Shown here in pieces: positions 6,313-58,662 of a stretch of 64,000 bases of DNA. The stretch is taken from positions 36,954-100,953 of the forward strand of contig JACPLG010000005.1 of the NCBI GenBank assembly GCA_016186625.1. Direction: 5' to 3'. Every line of letters begins with the position of its first letter. Position 1 is the stretch's first letter. The notes under the pieces were generated by a model that was not told where the DNA came from, searched no databases, and saw nothing but the letters and a program-made list of their open reading frames with translations. Position numbers and translations under genes: made by a program. Origin of the DNA: Candidatus Levyibacteriota bacterium. Lineage in GTDB: Bacteria > Patescibacteriota > Microgenomatia > Levybacterales > UBA12049.

Positions 6313-7271
6313 TGCAAACTATTCTCGTGGCAGGCGGATCCGGCTTTATTGGTTCAAATCTTTGCGAGAATCTTCTAAAGCGGGGCAACAAAATAATTTG
6401 CGTTGATAATTTTTTAACCAGCACTCACAGAAATATTGCTTCTTTTGAGGGAAATCCAAGCTTTACTTTTATTAAACATGATATAACTAGACCTCTTAGT
6501 CTTAAAGAGAAAATAGATGCCATATATCATCTTGCTTCTGCGGCCTCTCCTAATCATCACAGCAGAATTAGTTATCATGCATATCCCAAAGAAACAATGC
6601 TTGCTAATACGTCGGGAACTTTTCTGTTGCTCGGGCTCGCCCAGAAAAATAAAGCAAAATTTTTATTCGCATCCTCCTCTGAAGTTTATGGAGATCCATT
6701 AGAACACCCCCAAAAAGAGGATTACAGGGGAAATACCTCAACTACAGGTCCTCGTTCAGTTTATGATGAATCAAAGAGATTTGGCGAGACAATTACTGCA
6801 TATTTTAATAGAGAGAAAAACCTAGATACTAGAATTGCAAGAATATTTAATACCTATGGCCCAAAAATGATAAAAGAAGACATGAGAATGATTATTACGT
6901 TTATAACACAGGCCCTTGAAGGAGTGCCCATTACTATTTTTGGAGACGGAAAACAAACAAGGCCTCTTTGTTTTATTGATGATCTGGTGGATGGTTTGGT
7001 AAGGCTAATGGAATCACCTCAAGCAAAGGGAGAAGTTGTCAACTTGGGCTCAACGGACGAGCACACAGTTTTGGAGTACGCAGAGATAGTTAAGAGATTG
7101 ACAAATTCGAAAAGCGAAATAATATTTAGTGAAAAATTACCCCAGGACGACCCTACAAAAAGAAGACCTGATATTGAAAAAGCAAATAAGCTTTTAAGTT
7201 GGGAACCAAAAGTGTCACTTGAGGAAGGCTTGAAAAAAACTATAGAATATATCAGGAGCCATAATAGCTAA
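6312..7271 (+). CDS. uxs: UDP-glucuronate decarboxylase (UDP-xylose synthase)
   Basis: GGSGFIGSNLCENLL start, CVDNFLTS, SSSEVYGDPLEHPQKEDY and SVYDESKRFGE motifs typical of UXS. ugd lies upstream. Confidence 0.8.
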   Translation: MQTILVAGGSGFIGSNLCENLLKRGNKIICVDNFLTSTHRNIASFEGNPSFTFIKHDITRPLSLKEKIDAIYHLASAASPNHHSRISYHAYPKETMLANTSGTFLLLGLAQKNKAKFLFASSSEVYGDPLEHPQKEDYRGNTSTTGPRSVYDESKRFGETITAYFNREKNLDTRIARIFNTYGPKMIKEDMRMIITFITQALEGVPITIFGDGKQTRPLCFIDDLVDGLVRLMESPQAKGEVVNLGSTDEHTVLEYAEIVKRLTNSKSEIIFSEKLPQDDPTKRRPDIEKANKLLSWEPKVSLEEGLKKTIEYIRSHNS

Positions 7272-21132: not shown

Positions 21133-22896
21133 ATGAAAAAGTGGGATTTACTAAATAAAAAATCATCTCTTCGACAAACTCAGGACAAGAAAATAAAATC
21201 TAAAAAATTGGATACGGATAAATTGGTTCGAATCCTCCTTAAAAATCGAGGGATTAAAACAAAAAAAGAAGCCCAAGAGTTTTTGAGCCTAAAACTGGAA
21301 AGTTTGGATATTAATAAACTTGGGATAGACAAAAAGGACTTGAATAAAACTTTAAAAAGAATAAAAACCGCAATTGAGAAAAAAGAGCAAATAATTATTT
21401 TTGGCGACTATGATGCGGATGGGATATGTGGCACTGCAATTCTCTGGGAGACTCTGCATAGTCTTGGGGCCAATGTGTTGCCTTATATTCCCAACAGGAT
21501 TGAGGAAGGATACGGTTTATCCCTTGCGGGAATATCAAATTTAAAAAATAAAATATCAAATATAAAATTGGTGATAACAGTGGACAATGGGATTGTGGCA
21601 AATGACGCTGTTGAGTTTGCAAAAAGTTTAGACATCGATGTAATCATCACCGACCACCACGTACCTTCTAAAACTTTGCCCAAAGCTTTTGCAATTGTAC
21701 ACTCAACAAAAGTCTGCGGAGCGGGTGTGGCCTGGTTTCTCTCTCAAGAGATCGTTCGGGGTCCTGTCTCGCTTCACCCCCGCCCGACATCCTCATCCGC
21801 CAGCGGGCGGACTGCGGGTGCTCGTCGGGGGTCCCCCGCGCTCACCACCCCTCACCCCGATCACCTTGATCTCGTAGCGATTGCAACAGTTGCGGATTTA
21901 GTCCCGCTTGTTGGCCCAAATAGAATTCTTGTTAAGTTTGGGCTAGAAGAGCTTAAAAATACGAAAAGAGTTGGTTTGCAAGCGCTATATGATGAGGCAA
22001 GAATTGAAAGAGATAATATAGATACTTATACGATTGGACATATTGTTGCTCCAAGATTAAATGCTATGGGCAGGCTTGAAGAGGCAATGGACAGTCTTAG
22101 GCTTATTTGCACAAGAGACAAAAAAAGGGCAAATGTTTTGGCTAAGAAATTAGGAGAGATAAATAGAGTAAGACAGCGCCTCACAATTGATACTTTTATC
22201 CATGCCAGAGAGAGAGCCAACAAAAATACTCTCAAAAAACTACTTTTTGTTTATCATGAGTCTTATGAGCAAGGTGTGATTGGGTTGGTGGCTGGGAGAC
22301 TAACAGAGGAATATTATCTCCCATCAATAGTACTTTCAAAGGGAGAAAAGTTTAGTAAAGCTTCTGCTCGTTCTGTCTCGGGGCTAAACATAATAGAGTT
22401 TATAAGGGAAGCCGGAGAGTTTCTGGTTGATGCCGGGGGACACCCTATGGCTGCGGGTTTTACTATTGAGACAACAAAAATTCCACTTCTTGAAAAGAAA
22501 TTCGAAGAGCTTTCCAGGAGATTAATTTCAGACGACCATTTGGTCAGAAGACTAAAAATTGATTGCGAATTGCCTGTTTCTTATTTAACACTTGAATTAT
22601 TCGATTCGATATCGAAATTAGAACCATTTGGCATGAAAAACCCAACACCTGTTTTTTTAAGCAAAGGTTTGGAAATCACTGATATGCGATTAGTGGGAAT
22701 AGACGCAAAACATCTTAAATTAAAAATAAAAGATCAAATCTCAAATCTAACCATTGATGGGATTATTTTTAATTATGATAGTTCGATTGGTTTAAAGATC
22801 GGGGATAAAGTAGATGTTGTTTATTCAATAGAGATGAATGAATGGAACGGAAACAAGAAATTAGAACTTAAGATAAAAGATATTAAAAGTTCCTAG
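21133..22896 (+). CDS. recJ: single-stranded-DNA-specific exonuclease RecJ (DHH/DHHA1)
   Basis: IIFGDYDADGICGTAIL, VITDHH, LDLVAIATVADLVPL and a GGHPMAAG DHHA1 motif. Contains an in-frame GC-rich insert (see the repeat at 21755-21866). Confidence 0.85.
   Translation: MKKWDLLNKKSSLRQTQDKKIKSKKLDTDKLVRILLKNRGIKTKKEAQEFLSLKLESLDINKLGIDKKDLNKTLKRIKTAIEKKEQIIIFGDYDADGICGTAILWETLHSLGANVLPYIPNRIEEGYGLSLAGISNLKNKISNIKLVITVDNGIVANDAVEFAKSLDIDVIITDHHVPSKTLPKAFAIVHSTKVCGAGVAWFLSQEIVRGPVSLHPRPTSSSASGRTAGARRGSPALTTPHPDHLDLVAIATVADLVPLVGPNRILVKFGLEELKNTKRVGLQALYDEARIERDNIDTYTIGHIVAPRLNAMGRLEEAMDSLRLICTRDKKRANVLAKKLGEINRVRQRLTIDTFIHARERANKNTLKKLLFVYHESYEQGVIGLVAGRLTEEYYLPSIVLSKGEKFSKASARSVSGLNIIEFIREAGEFLVDAGGHPMAAGFTIETTKIPLLEKKFEELSRRLISDDHLVRRLKIDCELPVSYLTLELFDSISKLEPFGMKNPTPVFLSKGLEITDMRLVGIDAKHLKLKIKDQISNLTIDGIIFNYDSSIGLKIGDKVDVVYSIEMNEWNGNKKLELKIKDIKSS
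21755..21866 (+). repeat. GC-rich (~70 % GC) ~110-bp element inserted in-frame in recJ; homologous to an intergenic element at 28104-28203
   Basis: Begins TTCGGGGTCCTG, identical for 12 nt to the element at 28104, and ends ...CACCCCTCACC, matching CACCCCTCAAC in the other copy. Has an internal CCGCCCG/CGGGCGG inverted repeat. Encodes the low-complexity peptide RGPVSLHPRPTSSSASGRTAGARRGSPALTTPHPDH. Confidence 0.65.
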
Positions 22897-28049: not shown

Positions 28050-28103
28050 GTATTGAGTATAAGGCAGTTTTTAGTTACAATGCAAGGTGAGAGGAATGTT
28101 TGT

Positions 28104-28203
28104 TTCGGGGTCCTGCCACTCGTTTCCCTCCCGCCAGTGCTCGTTCACGAAACACTGAGCTCCGCGCTGTCGGGAGCCCTTCCACTCGTGTCACCCCTCA
28201 ACA
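28104..28203 (+). repeat. GC-rich ~100-bp element in the gltX 5' region; second copy of the recJ-inserted element; terminal inverted repeat GTTTGTTtcGGGG...CCCCtcAACAAAC
   Basis: Starts with TTCGGGGTCCTG. Contains a CTCCCG...CGGGAG inverted repeat. Ends ~20 nt before the gltX ATG. Confidence 0.6.
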
Positions 28204-28222
28204 AACAAAATAAAATAATAAT

Positions 28223-29617
28223 ATGGTAAGAACACGGATTGCGCCAAGTCCAACTGGGTTTCCCCATATCGGAACTGTCTATCAGGCGCTTTTTAATTAT
28301 TCTTTTGCTAAAAAAAACAAAGGTTCATTTATAGTTCGTGTTGAAGATACTGATCAAACCCGAATAGTTCCGGGCGCAGAGGAAAAAATATTTGAGGCAC
28401 TGGACTGGTTTGGTTTGCCCGAAGACGAAAGTCCGCGAAAAGGCGGAGATTTTGGGCCATATAGGCAATCTGAACGCCTGGAAATTTACAAGAAATATTT
28501 ATCCGAGCTTATTGAAAAAGGAGGAGCCTATTTTTGTTTTTGTACAAAAGAAAGACTGGATGCGCTGCGGGCAAGCCAGTCTGCGGCTAAGCAGCCCATT
28601 ATGTATGATGGCAACTGTCGCGGACTTTCCTTGGAAGAAGCAAAAAAAAGACTAAGCAATGAACCCCATGTAGCGAGATTGAAAATTCCCCACACCCGGA
28701 AATTAATAACAAGAGATGAAATTAGAGGGGATGTTGAGTTTGACCCGACACTTACTGAAGACTCTATTTTGATGAAATCGGACTTCTTTCCAACATACCA
28801 TTTTGCAGTGGTGGTTGATGATCACTTGATGAAAATAACACACGTTATTAGAGGTGAGGAATGGCTTTCATCTTTGCCAAAACATATTGTTATCTATGAT
28901 TATTTTGGTTGGGAAAAACCTTTGTTTTACCACACGCCCAATCTTAGAAATCCTGACAAGTCCAAGCTTTCCAAGCGTCACGGTCACGCAAATATAGATT
29001 GGTATAGGAAAGAAGGATTTTTACCTGAAGCAATTTTAAATTTCCTCTGCCTTATGGGGTGGAGTTACCCGGACCAGCGGGAAGAATTCGATCTATCGGA
29101 GTTTATTAATCTTTTTGACCCCAAAGATCTCAAACCGGTTGGCCCAATTTTTGACCTTACAAAACTTGAATGGCTCAATGGAGTCTGGATTAGAAATATG
29201 TCAGTCCAAGATTTAAGGAAACGACTTGAAAAATTTTATAAAGATGACAAGGACTTTAGTGTAATTTTTGAAAGCCGTCATATAGATCTTATGATTGGCC
29301 TTGCCCAAAGCAGAATGAAAAAACTTTCAGAGTTTCGAAGTCTTGTCATTGCGCCTCAAAAACAGAGGCAGTTTAGCGAGGAGGAAAAAGAGACAGGCAA
29401 AAAGCTTTTGGGAGTTCTTCAAGAAATAAATCATACCGACTGGAGGGAAGATATAATCCTCAACTATTTAAAGAATTTTAGAGATGAGGAGGGAGTTTCA
29501 ATGAAACTGATTTATTTTCTGATTACCGGCAGGGAACAGGGTCTTCCACTTATCGAAACAATGGTAAAAATTGAAGGAAGGGACCAAATCCTGGAGAATC
29601 TTAAGAAAAGAGTTTAG
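28223..29617 (+). CDS. gltX: glutamate--tRNA ligase
   Basis: MVRTRIAPSPTGFPHIGTVYQALFNY (HIGH-type motif) and KLSKRHG (KMSKS-type). Confidence 0.9.
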   Translation: MVRTRIAPSPTGFPHIGTVYQALFNYSFAKKNKGSFIVRVEDTDQTRIVPGAEEKIFEALDWFGLPEDESPRKGGDFGPYRQSERLEIYKKYLSELIEKGGAYFCFCTKERLDALRASQSAAKQPIMYDGNCRGLSLEEAKKRLSNEPHVARLKIPHTRKLITRDEIRGDVEFDPTLTEDSILMKSDFFPTYHFAVVVDDHLMKITHVIRGEEWLSSLPKHIVIYDYFGWEKPLFYHTPNLRNPDKSKLSKRHGHANIDWYRKEGFLPEAILNFLCLMGWSYPDQREEFDLSEFINLFDPKDLKPVGPIFDLTKLEWLNGVWIRNMSVQDLRKRLEKFYKDDKDFSVIFESRHIDLMIGLAQSRMKKLSEFRSLVIAPQKQRQFSEEEKETGKKLLGVLQEINHTDWREDIILNYLKNFRDEEGVSMKLIYFLITGREQGLPLIETMVKIEGRDQILENLKKRV

Positions 29618-32716: not shown

Positions 32717-33901
32717 ATGTTAAAAATCAATGAGCGGTCGCTTGCTCTTCACAAAAAACATCAGGGGAAGATTGCAACTGTTCCCATAGTTCCCATAAAA
32801 ACCAAAGAAGATCTATCACTTGCCTATACTCCGGGTGTTGCTGCGGCAAGCAGTCTGATTGCCAAAAATCCTATGCTTTCTTATGACTATACGTGGAGGG
32901 GGCGGGCTGTTGCTGTGGTGTCTGACGGCTCGGCGGTGTTGGGACTGGGAAACATAGGCCCTGAAGCGGCACTTCCCGTGATGGAGGGCAAGGCGCTGCT
33001 GCTTAAGGAATTTGGCGGGGTGGACGGCGTGCCTCTAGTTATAAACACTCAGGACGCCTCGGAGATTGTCCGGTTTGTTACCCATATTGCTCCGTCTTTT
33101 TCCGGCATTCTTTTGGAAGATATCAGTGCGCCCCGGTGCTTTCAGATAGAAGAAGAACTCTTAGGAATCGGGATACCGGTCTTTCATGATGATCAGCACG
33201 GGTCAGCGATTGCGGTAAGAGCGGCTCTTAAGAATGCGGCGAAGGTAGTGGGAAAGGAGTATGGTAATCTTCGGGTAGTGATTGTCGGCGCGGGAGCGGC
33301 AGGGCTTGCCACCGCCAAGATGCTTCTTGGCTTAACCTGTCAAAGTGATTTTTGTGAGATTATACCGGGAGGGCTACGGGTAAAAGATGCCATCATTGTC
33401 GATAGGGCGGGGGCCCTCTTTCCCGGAAGAGCTGATCAAAATATATATAAGCAGGGATTAGCCAGCGTGTCCAACATCGACCGCAAAAGTGGGACACTTG
33501 CCGAGGTTATTCAAGGCGCAGATGCGCTGATCGGAGTTTCCGGGCCAAACAATATTACGCCTGAGAATATACGACGCATGGCTCCTCACCCAATCGTATT
33601 TGCCATGGCCAACCCCGTACCCGAGATTATGCCCGATGAGGCCAGACGAGCAGGGGCGGCAGTAGTTGCAACAGGAAGGAGCGACGTTCCTAACCAAATC
33701 AATAACGTCCTGGTATTTCCCGGCGTTTTTCGGGCTGTTAAGGAGGGAAGGTTAAAAACTATTACACCGGAGATGAAACTGGCCGCATCAGACGCGTTGG
33801 CAGGATTAGTAACAAAGCCTACAGAAGATCACATTATCCCCGATCCGTTTTTTCCGAGGCTTGCAGAGACCATCGCCCATGCGATGCTAAAAAAGGCATA
33901 A
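32717..33901 (+). CDS. NAD(P)-dependent malic enzyme (short form, no PTA domain); markedly GC-rich relative to its surroundings
   Basis: LAYTPGVAAAS, VVSDGSAVLGLGNIGPEAALPVMEGKALL and VVIVGAGAAGLA motifs. The likely start is the ATG at 32717 (MLKINERSLALHKKHQGKI). Confidence 0.85.
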   Translation: MLKINERSLALHKKHQGKIATVPIVPIKTKEDLSLAYTPGVAAASSLIAKNPMLSYDYTWRGRAVAVVSDGSAVLGLGNIGPEAALPVMEGKALLLKEFGGVDGVPLVINTQDASEIVRFVTHIAPSFSGILLEDISAPRCFQIEEELLGIGIPVFHDDQHGSAIAVRAALKNAAKVVGKEYGNLRVVIVGAGAAGLATAKMLLGLTCQSDFCEIIPGGLRVKDAIIVDRAGALFPGRADQNIYKQGLASVSNIDRKSGTLAEVIQGADALIGVSGPNNITPENIRRMAPHPIVFAMANPVPEIMPDEARRAGAAVVATGRSDVPNQINNVLVFPGVFRAVKEGRLKTITPEMKLAASDALAGLVTKPTEDHIIPDPFFPRLAETIAHAMLKKA

Positions 33902-34924: not shown

Positions 34925-35148
34925 ATGGTCCTAAATATTTTAAGGACAAAATCAGTATAACTTCCCCCAAAAATTCCCCTGAAAAGAAGAGTGATCAGAA
35001 AAGCTAAAGGAACTAAGATTCTGTAAGGATGGTGTCCAAGCCAAAGGCTAACTGTTGAGAAAACTTTTGAAAATGGCATATCTCTGACTATTCTCTCCTG
35101 CTCACGGGCTCTTTGTTGAAGCTTTAAAATAAATTCACCCTCGTTCAT
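34921..35148 (-). CDS. small membrane protein downstream of the ECF sigma factor (candidate anti-sigma factor)
   Basis: The listed ORF 34921..35220 overlaps the sigma-gene 3' end. The internal ATG at 35148 (MNEGEFILKLQQRAREQ...) gives a plausible 75-aa protein with one TM helix. The function is inferred from position only. Confidence 0.3.
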   Translation of the reverse strand: MNEGEFILKLQQRAREQERIVRDMPFSKVFSTVSLWLGHHPYRILVPLAFLITLLFRGIFGGSYTDFVLKIFRTI

Positions 35149-35668
35149 AAAGGATTTGGAATTGCCGCCTTGCTCTAAAAAGTAGCGATTCCGTGGCTTT
35201 AAAAGAAAGATTAAATTCAAGAGCTATTTGTTTAATAGGTATGTTATCTTCATAATGGAGTCTTAGTATCTTTCTATATTTTTCAGAAAGAGCATAGAGA
35301 GTTTTTTCAATTTTAACTCTTATCCTATTTTTTTCAAACTGGAATTCAGGCTGGTGTACCTCTTTGTCGATTATCTCAAGATAAGGAATTTGAGACAGAA
35401 GTATAGACTTTATTTTTCTCTTTCTGTAGTAATCAACCATCTTATTATGGGCAATTTTAAAAAGCCAAGCAGTTAAGTTTGAATTTCTCTGAAGAAGCTG
35501 CAGGGAATCAATTGCCTCAAGAAAAACATCATTTGTCAGATCCTCGGCGTCTTCTTTTGAAGGCAAGCGGTGAGCAAGATAATTTAAAATCTTTGGGGAG
35601 TTTGACTTATAAAATTCACTTACCGATTGGGGATCTCCGCTTTTTACCTTATCGATCAGACTTCCCAT
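35135..35668 (-). CDS. ECF-type RNA polymerase sigma-70 family factor
   Basis: Region 2 (EDAEDLTNDVFLEAI, NLTAWLFKIAHNKMVDYYRKRK) and region 4 HTH (IKQIALEFNLSFKATESLLFRARRQF). The likely start is the ATG at 35668 (MGSLIDKVKSGD). The listed ORF's 71-aa N-terminal extension runs through a GC-rich non-coding segment. Confidence 0.8.
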   Translation of the reverse strand: MGSLIDKVKSGDPQSVSEFYKSNSPKILNYLAHRLPSKEDAEDLTNDVFLEAIDSLQLLQRNSNLTAWLFKIAHNKMVDYYRKRKIKSILLSQIPYLEIIDKEVHQPEFQFEKNRIRVKIEKTLYALSEKYRKILRLHYEDNIPIKQIALEFNLSFKATESLLFRARRQFQILYERG

Positions 35669-35739
35669 AAGAAGTATTATACACAATTTTGGAGTTTTTC
35701 CGCCAGCATTTACCCTTCGCCTTTTCGATTCTATACGAA

Positions 35740-35815
35740 TACGGCTGCCTCCAGACCTGCCTGCCGGCAGGCAGGGGCGGGCAGGCATGGAGCATTGCTT
35801 GGAGGACAAGTTGGT
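35740..35815. promoter_or_regulatory. GC-rich structured segment with a perfect 20-bp palindrome CCTGCCTGCCGGCAGGCAGG (35756-35775) in the divergent sigma/HMG-CoA-reductase intergenic region
   Basis: The palindrome reads directly. Flanking CCTCCAG...CTTGGAGG complementarity extends the hairpin. A TTGACT...TATATT promoter-like pair follows at ~35833-35862. Confidence 0.5.
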
Positions 35816-35879
35816 GCGAATGATTTTTTGACTTTTTACGACTATATTAGTAAGGCTTATTGCGGCCAAAAAATCGTTC

Positions 35880-37052
35880 ATGAACTTAAGAGATTACGGA
35901 TTAGCTTCGGATAGACGAACAGTTTTAGAAAAAGAACTTAAGCTTACTCTTCCAAATATTGGCTCGTTTACCTTGGACGAAAAAATTGCAAGTTCCAGAA
36001 ATTGCGAAAACATGATTGGAGTAGCACAAGTGCCAATTGGGATTGCAGGACCGTTAAAAGTTCAAAGTTCAATCCATTCGGCAAGCTCAGGACAAGCGTT
36101 CAAAGTTCAAAGTTATTATCTGCCTTTGGCGACGACAGAGGGGGCGTTGGTGGCATCGGTTAATAGAGGATGTAAAGCAATAACAGAATCTGGAGGGGCT
36201 GTCTCATATGCGTATCGCGTTGGACAAACAAGAGGACCTGTCTTTTCAGTTAAAAACCTGGAAGAACAGAAGAAAGTTTATGACTGGATAAAAAAGAATG
36301 AAGCAAAACTAGGAAAAGTTGCAGAATCTAACTCTCAGCATTTAAAACTTTTAAGAATAAAAGTTCGGGGACTGTCAAATTACTTGTTTGTTCGATTTTA
36401 TTTTAATACGGAGGATGCCATGGGTATGAATATGGTAACAATTGCAACCCAGAAAGCGTCAGAATTAATTGAAAAAGAAACAGGAGCAAGACTTATTTCT
36501 GTTGCAGGGAATTTTGATATAGATAAAAAACCATCCTGGCTTAATTTTATAAACAATCGCGGCTTTAAAGTCTGGTCTGAGGTGGTTCTAACAAAAAAAG
36601 TTCTCAAAGATGTTCTAAAAACTAATGCTGACAAATTTTTTGAAGTATGGCTTTCCAAATGTATGATCGGATCTGCAATGTCAGGTTCGTTAGGTTTTAA
36701 CGCTCAATATGCAAATATAATTGCAGCGCTTTTTATAGCAACAGGTCAGGACCCAGCCCATGTTGCGGAGGCAAGTATGGGGATTACAACAGCAAAAGTT
36801 TTACCAAACGGAAATCTTTCAGTCTCAATTTATTTGCCTGACTTAAGCATAGGAACAGTTGGTGGGGGAACTGGACTAGCAACGCAGCAGGAAGCGCTTT
36901 CGATATTGGGTGTTGCCGGCGCAGGAAATGTCGAAAAATTCGCTGAAATTGTTGGAGCAGCAGTTTTGGCAGGAGAAATTTCATTGATATCAAGTTTGTC
37001 CGAAGGAAGTTTGGCGATTGCTCATGAGAAACTAGGGAGAGGACTGAGATAA
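35880..37052 (+). CDS. hydroxymethylglutaryl-CoA reductase, class I (archaeal/eukaryotic type)
   Basis: EDAMGMNMV motif, LATTEGALVAS, GTVGGGT and a C-terminal HxxLG. Confidence 0.85.
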   Translation: MNLRDYGLASDRRTVLEKELKLTLPNIGSFTLDEKIASSRNCENMIGVAQVPIGIAGPLKVQSSIHSASSGQAFKVQSYYLPLATTEGALVASVNRGCKAITESGGAVSYAYRVGQTRGPVFSVKNLEEQKKVYDWIKKNEAKLGKVAESNSQHLKLLRIKVRGLSNYLFVRFYFNTEDAMGMNMVTIATQKASELIEKETGARLISVAGNFDIDKKPSWLNFINNRGFKVWSEVVLTKKVLKDVLKTNADKFFEVWLSKCMIGSAMSGSLGFNAQYANIIAALFIATGQDPAHVAEASMGITTAKVLPNGNLSVSIYLPDLSIGTVGGGTGLATQQEALSILGVAGAGNVEKFAEIVGAAVLAGEISLISSLSEGSLAIAHEKLGRGLR

Positions 37053-58499: not shown

Positions 58500-58614
58500 G
58501 GCCAAGCGGGCAGGTCTAGTGGTTCAGGACATCGGGTTCCCCGCCAGCAACGCTTTGCGTAGCAATTTTCGGGCTGGTCATCCCGAAAATCACGGGTTCG
58601 ACTCCCGTTGGCGG
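58500..58614 (+). ncRNA. tRNA-like element of unresolved structure (canonical D-arm and T-arm/3' acceptor; ~35-40 extra nt in the anticodon region; no complementary 5' acceptor strand found)
   Basis: GTCTAGTGGTTCAGGAC duplicates the tRNA-Glu D-arm. ACGGG-TTCGACT-CCCGT-TGGCGGT-A is a canonical T-arm plus acceptor 3' strand. TCGGG...CCCGA could form an anticodon stem bracketing a 44-nt insert. Confidence 0.3.
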
Positions 58615-58662
58615 TACGCCTCGTCAAACTCTTCAGGGTGAGCTTCAGATTTAACTCAGCAC

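What the first reader, a model, noticed from the sequence alone, without database searches (positions are those of the whole stretch)
21755..21866. GC-rich ~110-bp element inserted in-frame in recJ, with a homologous copy in the gltX leader (RPE-like behaviour)
The recJ reading frame passes through a ~110-bp stretch of roughly 70 % GC in a genome that is otherwise below 40 % GC. It encodes a P/S/R/G/A-rich peptide (RGPVSLHPRPTSSSASGRTAGARRGSPALTTPHPDH) between the DHH catalytic domain and the conserved LDLVAIATVADLVPL segment.

The element starts with TTCGGGGTCCTG, which is identical for 12 nt to the start of a non-coding GC-rich element at 28104-28203. The two ends also match (CACCCCTCACC versus CACCCCTCAAC), and both copies contain internal GC inverted repeats. 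A shared, structured, GC-rich mini-element that sits in-frame in an essential gene in one place and intergenic in another resembles Rickettsia palindromic elements. I know of no such family described for this kind of genome.
Basis: seen in the sequence. Interest (0 to 1): 0.8.

Follow-up and report, generated by a model that had tools for sequence, protein, structure and literature searches.

The report
Palindromic GC-rich repeat inside CPR genes
The GC-rich stretch in recJ and its partner upstream of gltX are two copies of a previously undescribed family of about 90-110-base hairpin-forming repeats, found so far only in Candidate Phyla Radiation bacteria apart from one unverified 'Deltaproteobacteria' genome bin, that lie between genes or in-frame inside housekeeping genes, much as Rickettsia palindromic elements do.

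Summary
The window comes from a Candidatus Levybacteria (CPR) genome with 38% GC.

- **Two copies.** Copy 1 (21758-21851, 73% GC) lies in-frame in recJ. Copy 2 (28107-28197) lies 26 nt upstream of gltX. A covariance model built from 63 relatives of copy 2 finds copy 1 full-length (31.6 bits, E 2e-6), so the two are homologous subfamilies, here called A and B.
- **Distribution.** Copies occur in Levybacteria, Roizmanbacteria, Microgenomates, Saccharimonadales, Doudnabacteria and Uhrbacteria, with at least 3-9 copies per genome.
- **Architecture.** A long imperfect hairpin has a conserved core and helices that covary (96% of cells paired, against 30-49% in slid controls).
- **Location.** About half of the copies sit in short intergenic spacers. 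The rest sit in-frame, in either orientation, in loops or linkers of RecJ, LeuRS, DnaX-like proteins, TopA, Tgt, PRPP-synthetase-like proteins, PPDK and others.
- **RecJ.** The insert is a predicted disordered loop.
- **Conservation.** Copies are far more conserved than their host genes (83-88% against 61-68% identity).
- **Orientation.** Orientation follows GC skew (54 of 63 copies).

The best explanation is a non-autonomous mobile palindromic DNA element, probably moved through single-stranded DNA. No transposase, Rfam family or publication was found.

The parts
21758..21851 (+). Copy 1, subfamily A: hairpin core GGGGTCCTG...CCACCCC, in-frame in recJ. It encodes about RGPVSLHPRPTSSSASGRTAGARRGSPALTTP.
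   Evidence: Sequence. Fold z = -3.3. Covariance model R1 hit 21747-21862, 31.6 bits, E 2e-6. Subfamily A recurs in L001, L125, L126 and L127.
21750..21754 (+). GATCG, the 5' flank that pairs with CGATC at 21858-21862 and extends the hairpin of copy 1.
   Evidence: MFE structure.
21858..21862 (+). CGATC, the 3' flank that pairs with 21750-21754.
   Evidence: MFE structure.
21133..22896 (+). recJ (587 aa), host gene of copy 1. The insert lies between helix 196-209 and helix 245-254 of the DHH domain.
   Evidence: ORF. 100% identical to NCBI RecJ of Candidatus Levybacteria, with Pfam DHH, DHHA1 and RecJ_OB. AlphaFold mean pLDDT is 89.5; the 10-residue blocks covering 211-240 average pLDDT 45-60 and residues 210-244 are modelled as coil.
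28107..28197 (+). Copy 2, subfamily B: hairpin core GGGGTCCTGCCACTCG TTTCCCTCCCGCCAGTGCTC [apical hairpin] CCGCGCTGTCGGGAGCCCTTCC ACTCGTGTCACCCC.
   Evidence: Sequence. Fold z = -5.0. R1 hit 28096-28208, 107 bits. 88% identical to the recJ copy of another Levybacterium, L002.
28097..28104 (+). TGTTTGTT, the copy-specific outer stem (5' arm) of copy 2.
   Evidence: Pairs with AACAAACA at 28200-28207. Outer-stem extensions are enriched in the family.
28200..28207 (+). AACAAACA, the copy-specific outer stem (3' arm) of copy 2.
28223..29617 (+). gltX (464 aa). Copy 2 ends 26 nt (core) or 16 nt (outer stem) upstream of its ATG, in a 173-nt divergent spacer.
   Evidence: ORFs. The orthologous spacers in relatives are 30-48 nt. 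A promoter-like site at 28188-28216 overlaps the 3' arm, and another at 28053-28081 lies upstream of the element.

Best explanation
Both loci are copies of one family of short (about 90-nt core, up to about 125 nt with outer stem), GC-rich DNA repeats. The repeats form imperfect hairpins, are non-autonomous, and are found in CPR/Patescibacteria genomes.

**Anatomy.** The element is a rod made of four parts:
- P1: GGGU/ACCC.
- P2: 6-7 bp of variable, covarying sequence.
- A conserved core: UUUCCCUCCCGCCAGUGCUC ... UGCGCGCUGUCGGGAGCCCUUCC in subfamily B, and UUCACCCCCGCC ... GUCGGGGGUCCC in subfamily A.
- A hypervariable apical hairpin.

**Spread (inferred).** The element spreads within and between genomes by a trans-acting enzyme that is not identified here. 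The most likely route is a single-stranded hairpin intermediate on the lagging-strand template.

**Retention.** Copies survive only where they do no harm. That means short intergenic spacers, or surface loops and linkers of proteins where the insert keeps the frame. In the latter case it is translated (inferred) as a P/S/A/R/G-rich disordered peptide.

**In this window.** The subfamily A copy adds about 31-35 residues to a RecJ loop. The subfamily B copy sits in the gltX promoter or leader region, where it may incidentally affect expression.

**Shown:** family membership, structure and covariation, presence/absence among orthologues, in-frame occurrence in many proteins, and the orientation bias.

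**Inferred:** mobility mechanism, translation, and neutrality.
For: - **Family and homology.**
  - A genome scan with the B core returned 118 loci, about 60 of them true copies in low-GC CPR MAGs.
  - The covariance model links subfamilies A, B and C and gives 74 hits in 488 kb of related loci.
- **Structure.**
  - 9 of 21 pairs show double compensatory changes.
  - 96% of cells are paired, against 30-49% when partners are slid.
  - 165 double-change cells are seen, against 20-49 in slid controls.
- **Presence/absence.**
  - RecJ orthologues exist with and without the insert.
  - Only 3 of 120 LeuRS orthologues carry a clear copy at one linker, and others show remnants.
  - The gltX spacer is 30-48 nt in relatives against 173 nt here.
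- **Many hosts, both orientations, frame kept.**
  - Hosts include RecJ, LeuRS, DnaX-like, PRPP-synthetase-like, Tgt-like, DprA-like, GT39-like, PPDK, ComF-like, WecG and TopA.
  - Tight 'intergenic' copies lie between distinct complete genes, not inside split genes.
- **Conservation.** Orthologous-site copies are 83-88% identical while the flanking recJ is 61-68%. The window's gltX copy is 88% identical to another genome's recJ copy.
- **Orientation.**
  - The element's top strand lies on the G-rich strand in 51 of 63 copies (p 7e-7), and by GC3 skew in 54 of 63 (p 6e-9).
  - Where skew and gene direction disagree, the element follows skew 15:4.
  - Only about 65% of copies are sense to neighbouring genes.
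- **RecJ insert.** It is predicted to be a low-confidence coil in an otherwise confident fold.
- **Not an assembly artefact.** Independent assemblies (NCBI, JGI, ENA, Logan) carry the same kind of insert.
Against: - No transposase was found. A tblastn with an IS200 TnpA sequence recalled from memory found nothing. No mobile-element family appeared among the top 25 Pfam families returned for 128 neighbouring ORFs; the remaining families were not listed. No half-sites suggesting an autonomous version are present in the held loci.
- There is no conserved target motif and no consistent target-site duplication.
- No filled-versus-empty pair was available at nucleotide resolution, so an insertion event was never seen directly.
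- Covarying helices around a conserved core across several CPR phyla look more like a selected structured nucleic acid than a typical short-lived MITE.
- Reuse of exactly the same loop in orthologues (recJ, the DnaX-like and PRPP-synthetase-like proteins, LeuRS) can also be read as old vertical inheritance plus constraint.
- MFE calculations do not favour the top strand over the bottom strand.
- The B set was collected with an exact core pattern, so core invariance in that set is partly circular. The RecJ peptides found by protein homology are the independent check.
Confidence: 0.62

Rival explanations
1. It is a functional structured RNA, either a cis-regulatory element or a small ribozyme or protein-binding RNA. 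Its helices are kept by selection at the RNA level. Copies inside genes are transcribed with the host mRNA and act there, for example on stability, processing or translation.
For: - A conserved core with strongly covarying P1 and P2 and a hypervariable but always paired apical hairpin.
- G-U type pairs at three positions on the top strand.
- Anti-Shine-Dalgarno-like CCUCC and CCCUUCC paired with or next to GGGAG.
- The window's B copy lies directly upstream of the gltX start.
Against: - No Rfam family matches, even at E <= 10.
- About one third of copies are antisense to the surrounding genes, including in-frame antisense copies.
- Orientation follows GC skew better than it follows transcription direction.
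- Copies are scattered in unrelated genes with no common function.
- Both strands fold equally well.
Confidence: 0.15
2. It is a host-selected DNA signal that works on single-stranded DNA during replication. Examples would be a hairpin recognised by primase or a primosome, or by a recombination or repair protein, on the lagging-strand template. In this reading it is dispersed because it is useful, not because it is selfish.
For: - The strong replication-strand orientation bias.
- High sequence conservation of the core across CPR lineages relative to the host genes.
- Hairpin architecture.
- No transposase found.
Against: - Copy number is low and irregular: 2 in 64 kb here, and at least 3 on an 804-kb contig by exact pattern.
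- Many close relatives lack the copies.
- Decayed remnants exist.
- Other transposons that move as single strands show the same kind of bias (my recollection of the IS200/IS605 literature, not tested here).
Confidence: 0.1
3. It is not a repeat element at all. It would be a lineage-specific low-complexity linker of RecJ that happens to be GC-rich, or a chimeric assembly.
For: The RecJ loop is hypervariable in length and sequence among orthologues.
Against: - The same nucleotide sequence family occurs in intergenic DNA and in unrelated proteins.
- Covariance-model E-values are 1e-5 to 1e-29.
- Independent assemblies from four sources carry it.
- Conservation is at the nucleotide level and includes non-coding copies.
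Confidence: 0.02

Closest known systems
Rickettsia palindromic elements (RPE)
   Same: Dispersed repeats of about 100-150 bp that form hairpins. They occur in intergenic DNA and in-frame inside housekeeping genes of a reduced genome, adding a tolerated peptide segment. No transposase of their own is known. (The RPE properties are from my own knowledge.)
   Different: The host phylum is different and no sequence relation was shown, because no RPE sequences were available to compare. Here the element is very GC-rich in an AT-rich genome. It has a conserved core with covarying stems shared across several CPR phyla, and a replication-strand orientation bias.
REP / REPIN elements mobilised by RAYT (TnpA_REP) and IS200/IS605-derived palindromic MITEs (PATEs)
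   Same: Hairpin-forming, non-autonomous, multi-copy elements. The orientation bias relative to replication fits single-strand transposition on the lagging-strand template. There are no clear terminal direct repeats.
   Different: REPs are 20-40 nt units and extragenic, and a RAYT gene flanked by REPs is expected. None was found in about 0.6 Mb of held loci. No conserved 4-5-nt target or guide motif lies next to the ends. The element is one long rod, not two subterminal hairpins.
GC clusters of yeast mitochondrial DNA, and other palindromic repeats such as ERIC and Correia elements
   Same: GC-rich palindromic mobile-looking modules in an AT-rich genome, sometimes inside coding sequence. Their sequences are conserved and they have no coding capacity. 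(From my own knowledge.)
   Different: The genomes and sequences are unrelated. ERIC and Correia elements are mostly in transcribed intergenic regions and have defined TIR/TSD (Correia). Here there is no consistent TSD.

Membership tests
Rickettsia palindromic elements (RPE) | Sequence homology to one of the RPE consensus families | not testable with these tools
   No RPE sequences or models were available. Rfam has no hit. The host is CPR, not Rickettsia.
Rickettsia palindromic elements (RPE) | Palindromic repeat found both between genes and in-frame inside protein-coding genes | tested here: met
REP/REPIN-RAYT | Cognate RAYT / Y1 HUH transposase gene, typically flanked by the repeats | tested here: inconclusive
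   No IS200-like TnpA by tblastn, using a query recalled from memory. None among the top 25 Pfam families returned for 128 neighbouring ORFs. Whole genomes could not be scanned.
REP/REPIN-RAYT | Strictly extragenic location | tested here: not met
   About 40% of copies lie inside long ORFs.
IS200/IS605-derived MITE (PATE) | Insertion next to a conserved tetra- or pentanucleotide target, with no TSD | tested here: not met
   Flank profiles show no conserved target beyond 3-5 nt that belong to subfamily ends. There is no consistent TSD.
IS200/IS605-derived MITE (PATE) | Orientation bias with the active strand on the lagging-strand template | tested here: met
   51 of 63 copies by GC skew and 54 of 63 by GC3 skew. 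This assumes the usual rule that G>C marks the leading strand.
Classical DDE-type MITE | Terminal inverted repeats plus direct target-site duplication of fixed length | tested here: not met
   The ends GGGTCCTGYCGC / GCGRCACCC are only loosely inverted. Direct repeats of 6 or more nt occur in 11% of copies against 2% in the control, with inconsistent offsets. Instead, 19 of 63 copies have inverted flank extensions of 5 or more bp.
Any Rfam RNA family (including small self-cleaving ribozymes) | Score at or above the family's gathering threshold | tested here: not met
   Only three tRNAs in the window reach the gathering score. In E-value mode on 28060-28240 the best hits are 12-16 bits against thresholds of 37-40.

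The most novel reading that the evidence does not exclude
The element is not just selfish DNA. It would be a hairpin module found across CPR lineages, oriented with replication, and recognised as single-stranded DNA (or RNA) by a still unknown conserved protein. That would explain three things: why its core is held nearly constant across several candidate phyla, why its helices covary, and why some copies carry copy-specific inverted duplications of the flank. This would amount to a new mobilisation or DNA-transaction mechanism that generates or requires flank-to-flank pairing.
Probability: 0.2. Interest if true: 0.85.

Novelty: new member of a known kind. Interest (0 to 1): 0.62.

Why it matters
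- **A gap filled.** CPR/Patescibacteria have tiny, compact genomes and, as far as I could find, no described family of dispersed repeats. This family shows that even these genomes carry a spreading palindromic element that remodels loops of core enzymes such as RecJ, LeuRS, TopA and DnaX-like proteins.
- **Annotation.** It explains odd GC-rich, P/S/A/R/G-rich segments and length variation in CPR proteins.
- **Evolution.** It gives a marker for recent DNA exchange among CPR lineages.
- **An open question made testable.** The combination of a conserved core, covarying stems and replication-linked orientation points to an unidentified trans-acting enzyme. A covariance model now exists to map the element, which makes that enzyme searchable.

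Tried and rejected
- **Rfam.** Searched at gathering threshold and in E-value mode. Nothing was found.
- **Literature.** Four searches, including the core sequence as a text string. Nothing was found.
- **Peptide-based census of host proteins.**
  - The profile was too short to be accepted.
  - A concatenated sense plus antisense profile gave 1 hit.
  - phmmer of the 36-aa translation against 1.84 billion representatives gave 6 hits.
  - These searches are statistically underpowered and do not measure abundance.
- **Transposase hunt.** tblastn with a recalled IS200 TnpA, Pfam on 128 neighbouring ORFs, of which only the top 25 families are returned, ORFs between paired copies, and orphan half-sites. 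All were negative.
- **Phages and plasmids as vectors.**
  - The one viral-contig pattern match is a chance hit in a 63% GC contig.
  - There was no blastn match in the phage or plasmid collections.
- **Cross-phylum spread into Gammaproteobacteria.** Rejected for the one MAG checked. Its record title is wrong: its LeuRS is named Levybacteria by NCBI and all near homologues are Levybacteria. The other MAGs with the same title carry Levybacteria- or Roizmanbacteria-type copies and are assumed to be mislabelled too.
- **Target motif such as TTAA, or a fixed TSD.** Not supported.
- **'The top strand is the only folding strand'.** Not supported by MFE.
- **Translational bypass or a split gene.** Not needed, because every coding copy keeps the frame and tight intergenic copies separate distinct genes.
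- **Inverted duplication of 4-9 nt of target.** For five Roizmanbacteria-type coding copies, my arithmetic on the lengths gives multiples of three if one outer arm is counted as new. This is suggestive only and is not claimed.
Full report
**1. The observation**

The window is 38.5% GC. It holds two non-tRNA islands of more than 62% GC that look alike: 21727-21889 and 28105-28199. The recJ ORF (21133..22896, +, 587 aa) reads through the first island as VRGPVSLHPRPTSSSASGRTAGARRGSPALTTPHPDH. The second island lies in the 173-nt spacer between a 347-aa gene on the minus strand and gltX, which starts at 28223.

TTCGGGGTCCTG occurs exactly twice in the window, at the start of each island. Both islands end in CACCCCTCA. 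Each folds into one long imperfect hairpin closed by GGGGU/ACCCC, with z-scores of -3.3 and -5.0. In both, the hairpin is lengthened by flanking bases that differ between the copies: GATCG/CGATC in recJ, and TGTTTGTT/AACAAACA upstream of gltX.

The RecJ protein is 100% identical to an NCBI entry from Candidatus Levybacteria, so the organism is a CPR bacterium.

**2. It is an insertion, and it recurs**

I aligned 120 RecJ orthologues.
- The closest ones (P0002-P0012, 62-66% identity) have a short ordinary linker at this point.
- About 13 others carry a 30-65-residue insert in exactly the same loop.

Fetching the DNA of four of these showed three nucleotide subtypes:
- **A:** this window and L001.
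- **B:** L002 and L003.
- **C:** L004.

Subtype B in the recJ of L002 is 88% identical to this window's gltX-side copy. So one genome's recJ carries what another genome has upstream of gltX.

The orthologous spacer upstream of gltX is 30-48 nt in four relatives, against 173 nt here. That is what an insertion of about 110-125 nt would produce.

**3. The family**

*Genome scan.* I scanned one genome per species with the B core (CCCGCCAGTGC, 18-42 nt, GCGCTGTCGG).
- About half are chance hits in high-GC genomes.
- About 60 are full elements in low-GC MAGs of Levybacteria, Roizmanbacteria, Microgenomates, Saccharimonadales, Doudnabacteria, Uhrbacteria and 'Patescibacteria group'.

*Mislabelled MAGs.* Many TPA MAGs titled 'uncultured Gammaproteobacteria' also scored. 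I checked one of them, CAZRWL01. Its LeuRS is named Candidatus Levybacteria by NCBI and all its near homologues are Levybacteria, so I treat those titles as wrong. One 'Deltaproteobacteria' MAG (L073) was not checked.

*Copy number.* Lower bounds per genome are 9 (Roizmanbacteria JACOYT01), 5 (Levyibacteriota JBEKQZ01) and 5 (CAZFNO01).

*Other collections.* A metagenome scan with a 20-mer from subtype A found subtype A in three further CPR-like contigs. One of them also carries a B copy. No true copy turned up in viral contigs, phage records or plasmid records.

**4. Anatomy**

The alignment of 63 B copies gives this layout:
- an outer stem, present in some copies and specific to each;
- P1, N-GGGU/ACCC-N;
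- a small asymmetric loop, CCU/C;
- P2, 6-7 bp;
- a pyrimidine-rich internal loop, UUUCC / CCCUUCC;
- P3, CUCCCGCCAGUGC / GCGCUGUCGGGAG, with one C-U mismatch;
- an apical hairpin that differs in sequence and length but is paired in nearly every copy.

*Covariation.* P1 and P2 covary strongly.
- 9 of 21 pairs show double changes.
- 96% of cells are paired, against 30-49% when partners are slid by 1-3 columns.
- 165 double-change cells are seen, against 20-49 in slid controls.
- P3 is invariant in this set partly because it was the search pattern. The RecJ peptides found by protein homology (FPPASA...RAVG in 8 of about 13 inserts) confirm independently that this core is conserved.

*Link between subfamilies.* A covariance model built from the B copies scores the A and C copies end to end at 27-32 bits, E 1e-4 to 2e-6. 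The window holds only these two copies. No Rfam family matches.

**5. Where copies sit**

*Coding against intergenic.* Of the 63 B copies, roughly 60% are in short intergenic spacers that consist almost entirely of the element. The rest are inside long ORFs. Five of the tightest intergenic cases lie between distinct, complete genes, not inside broken ones.

*Host proteins.* Coding copies keep the reading frame and occur in both orientations.
- **Sense.** They are read mostly in one frame, (R)GPxxxFPPASAxxxxx(L/V)RAVGSPSxxxTP. This frame is used in 12 of about 15 sense copies, although all three plus-strand frames are open in 75-83% of copies. My reading is that selection favours a harmless hydrophilic peptide.
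- **Antisense.** They are read mostly as GGxSG(R/K)VPDSAQ...STGG(R/K)E...
- **Hosts confirmed by the searches:** RecJ and LeuRS, and by Pfam PPDK/PEP synthase and a DegT-family aminotransferase.
- **Hosts named only from sequence motifs I recognised:** DnaX-like, PRPP-synthetase-like, Tgt-like, DprA-like, MiaB-like and GT39-like membrane proteins.
- **Subtype A.** It sits in-frame in a ComF-like phosphoribosyltransferase, a WecG/TagA glycosyltransferase and topoisomerase I, always read as RGPVSLHPRPTSS...TAGARRGSPALTTP.
- **Position in the protein.** Where Pfam domains could be placed, the insert falls between domains or within a domain whose match continues on both sides.

*RecJ.* AlphaFold gives a confident fold (mean pLDDT 89.5). 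Residues 210-244 are modelled as coil. The 10-residue blocks covering 211-240 average pLDDT 45-60, and residues 221-237 are below 50. This stretch lies between helix 196-209 and helix 245-254.

*LeuRS.* Only 3 of 120 orthologues carry a clear copy at one linker. P0162 keeps just the two ends (AGPVKS...SFATR) and P0130 a longer degenerate version, so copies also decay.

**6. Signs of how it behaves**

1. **More conserved than the host.** A copies in the recJ of this window and of L001 are 88% identical, while the adjacent 300 nt of recJ are 63-68%. B copies in L002 and L003 are 83% against 61-64%. Either the copies are younger than the species split, or their nucleotide sequence is constrained.
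2. **Genome-specific variants.** Copies within one genome share the apical-hairpin type but differ in P2 and in the outer stem, always with matching changes on both arms.
3. **Outer-stem extension.** 19 of 63 copies have 5 or more extra base pairs between their flanks, against 2% in shuffled pairings. 14 have 7 or more, against 0.3%. These stems differ from copy to copy, for example AAATTCTGAC/GTCAGAATTT and ACAATGTGAC/GTCACATTGT in a single Roizmanbacteria genome.
4. **Orientation.**
   - The strand that reads GGGTCCTG...CACCC lies on the G-rich strand in 51 of 63 loci (p 7e-7).
   - By third-codon-position skew the count is 54 of 63 (p 6e-9).
   - Where skew and the direction of neighbouring genes disagree, the element follows skew 15 to 4.
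   - Under the usual rule that the leading strand is G-rich, this strand is the lagging-strand template, which is single-stranded during replication.
5. **Missing pieces.**
   - There is no conserved target motif and no consistent direct target duplication.
   - No transposase was found: none by tblastn with a recalled IS200 TnpA, and none among the top 25 Pfam families returned for 128 neighbouring ORFs.
   - The held loci contain no orphan half-sites.
   - Minimum-free-energy folding does not prefer one strand, so the G-U type pairs seen on the top strand are only weak evidence for which strand folds.

**7. Interpretation**

The simplest account is a non-autonomous mobile palindromic DNA element. 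It is kept only at harmless sites, and its insertion or maintenance is tied to single-stranded DNA at the replication fork.

- **Behaviour.** It behaves like Rickettsia palindromic elements.
- **Likely mechanism.** It resembles REP/REPIN or IS200/IS605-type single-strand elements.
- **Membership.** It fails or cannot be given the membership tests for each of those families: it is not extragenic, no RAYT was found, there is no target motif, and there is no TIR/TSD.
- **Rivals.** A selected structured RNA and a host DNA signal remain possible, because a conserved core with covarying stems is unusual for a MITE. Against an obligate mRNA role stand the one-third antisense copies, the scatter across unrelated genes and the skew-linked orientation.
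- **Artefact.** An assembly artefact or a mere low-complexity linker is excluded by the family data.

**8. Novelty and verdict**

I found no description of this family in Rfam or in the searchable literature. I rate it a new member of a known kind: dispersed palindromic repeats that can sit in-frame in genes. It has unusual features that could turn out to be mechanistically new.

Noticed in passing
window 35745-35790 (inside or at the 5' end of ORF 35135..35881, minus strand); also L022:1682, L119:5934, L119:6377: A second, smaller GC-rich perfect palindrome, CCTGCCTG-nnnn-CAGGCAGG. In L119 one copy is nested inside a B-type element. It looks like another dispersed palindromic repeat family.
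   Followed up: partly
RecJ orthologues P0049, P0076, P0096, P0102 and LeuRS P0131; RecJ P0034, P0047, P0048: The same permissive loops carry other repeat-like translated inserts in other genomes: '...NSFRHL...MLKQVQHD...' and 'AEVAHKNFRVRS...HSENFVGS'. This suggests further families of in-frame palindromic elements in CPR.
   Followed up: no
window 58506-58616: Rfam reports a tRNA match 111 nt long at 32 bits, just above threshold. ARAGORN does not call it. It may be a tRNA gene with an insertion or intron.
   Followed up: partly
window 32883-33700: Several stretches of 57-62% GC spread over what appears to be one gene, well above the window mean of 38%. Whether this reflects conservation or foreign origin was not examined.
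   Followed up: no
L076:6377-6494 (+) and 6501-6625 (-): Two element copies lie head-to-head only 7 nt apart in an Uhrbacteria contig.
   Followed up: no
L126:2906-3060: An A-type copy inside topoisomerase I carries a nested extra hairpin (CGCCTGTCAAGCAGGCG) and is still in-frame.
   Followed up: partly
Record titles of L010, L012, L014, L019, L028, L030, L035 and others: TPA MAGs titled 'uncultured Gammaproteobacteria bacterium' appear to be mislabelled CPR genomes. The LeuRS of one of them (CAZRWL01) is Levybacteria by NCBI protein name and by all near homologues.
   Followed up: partly
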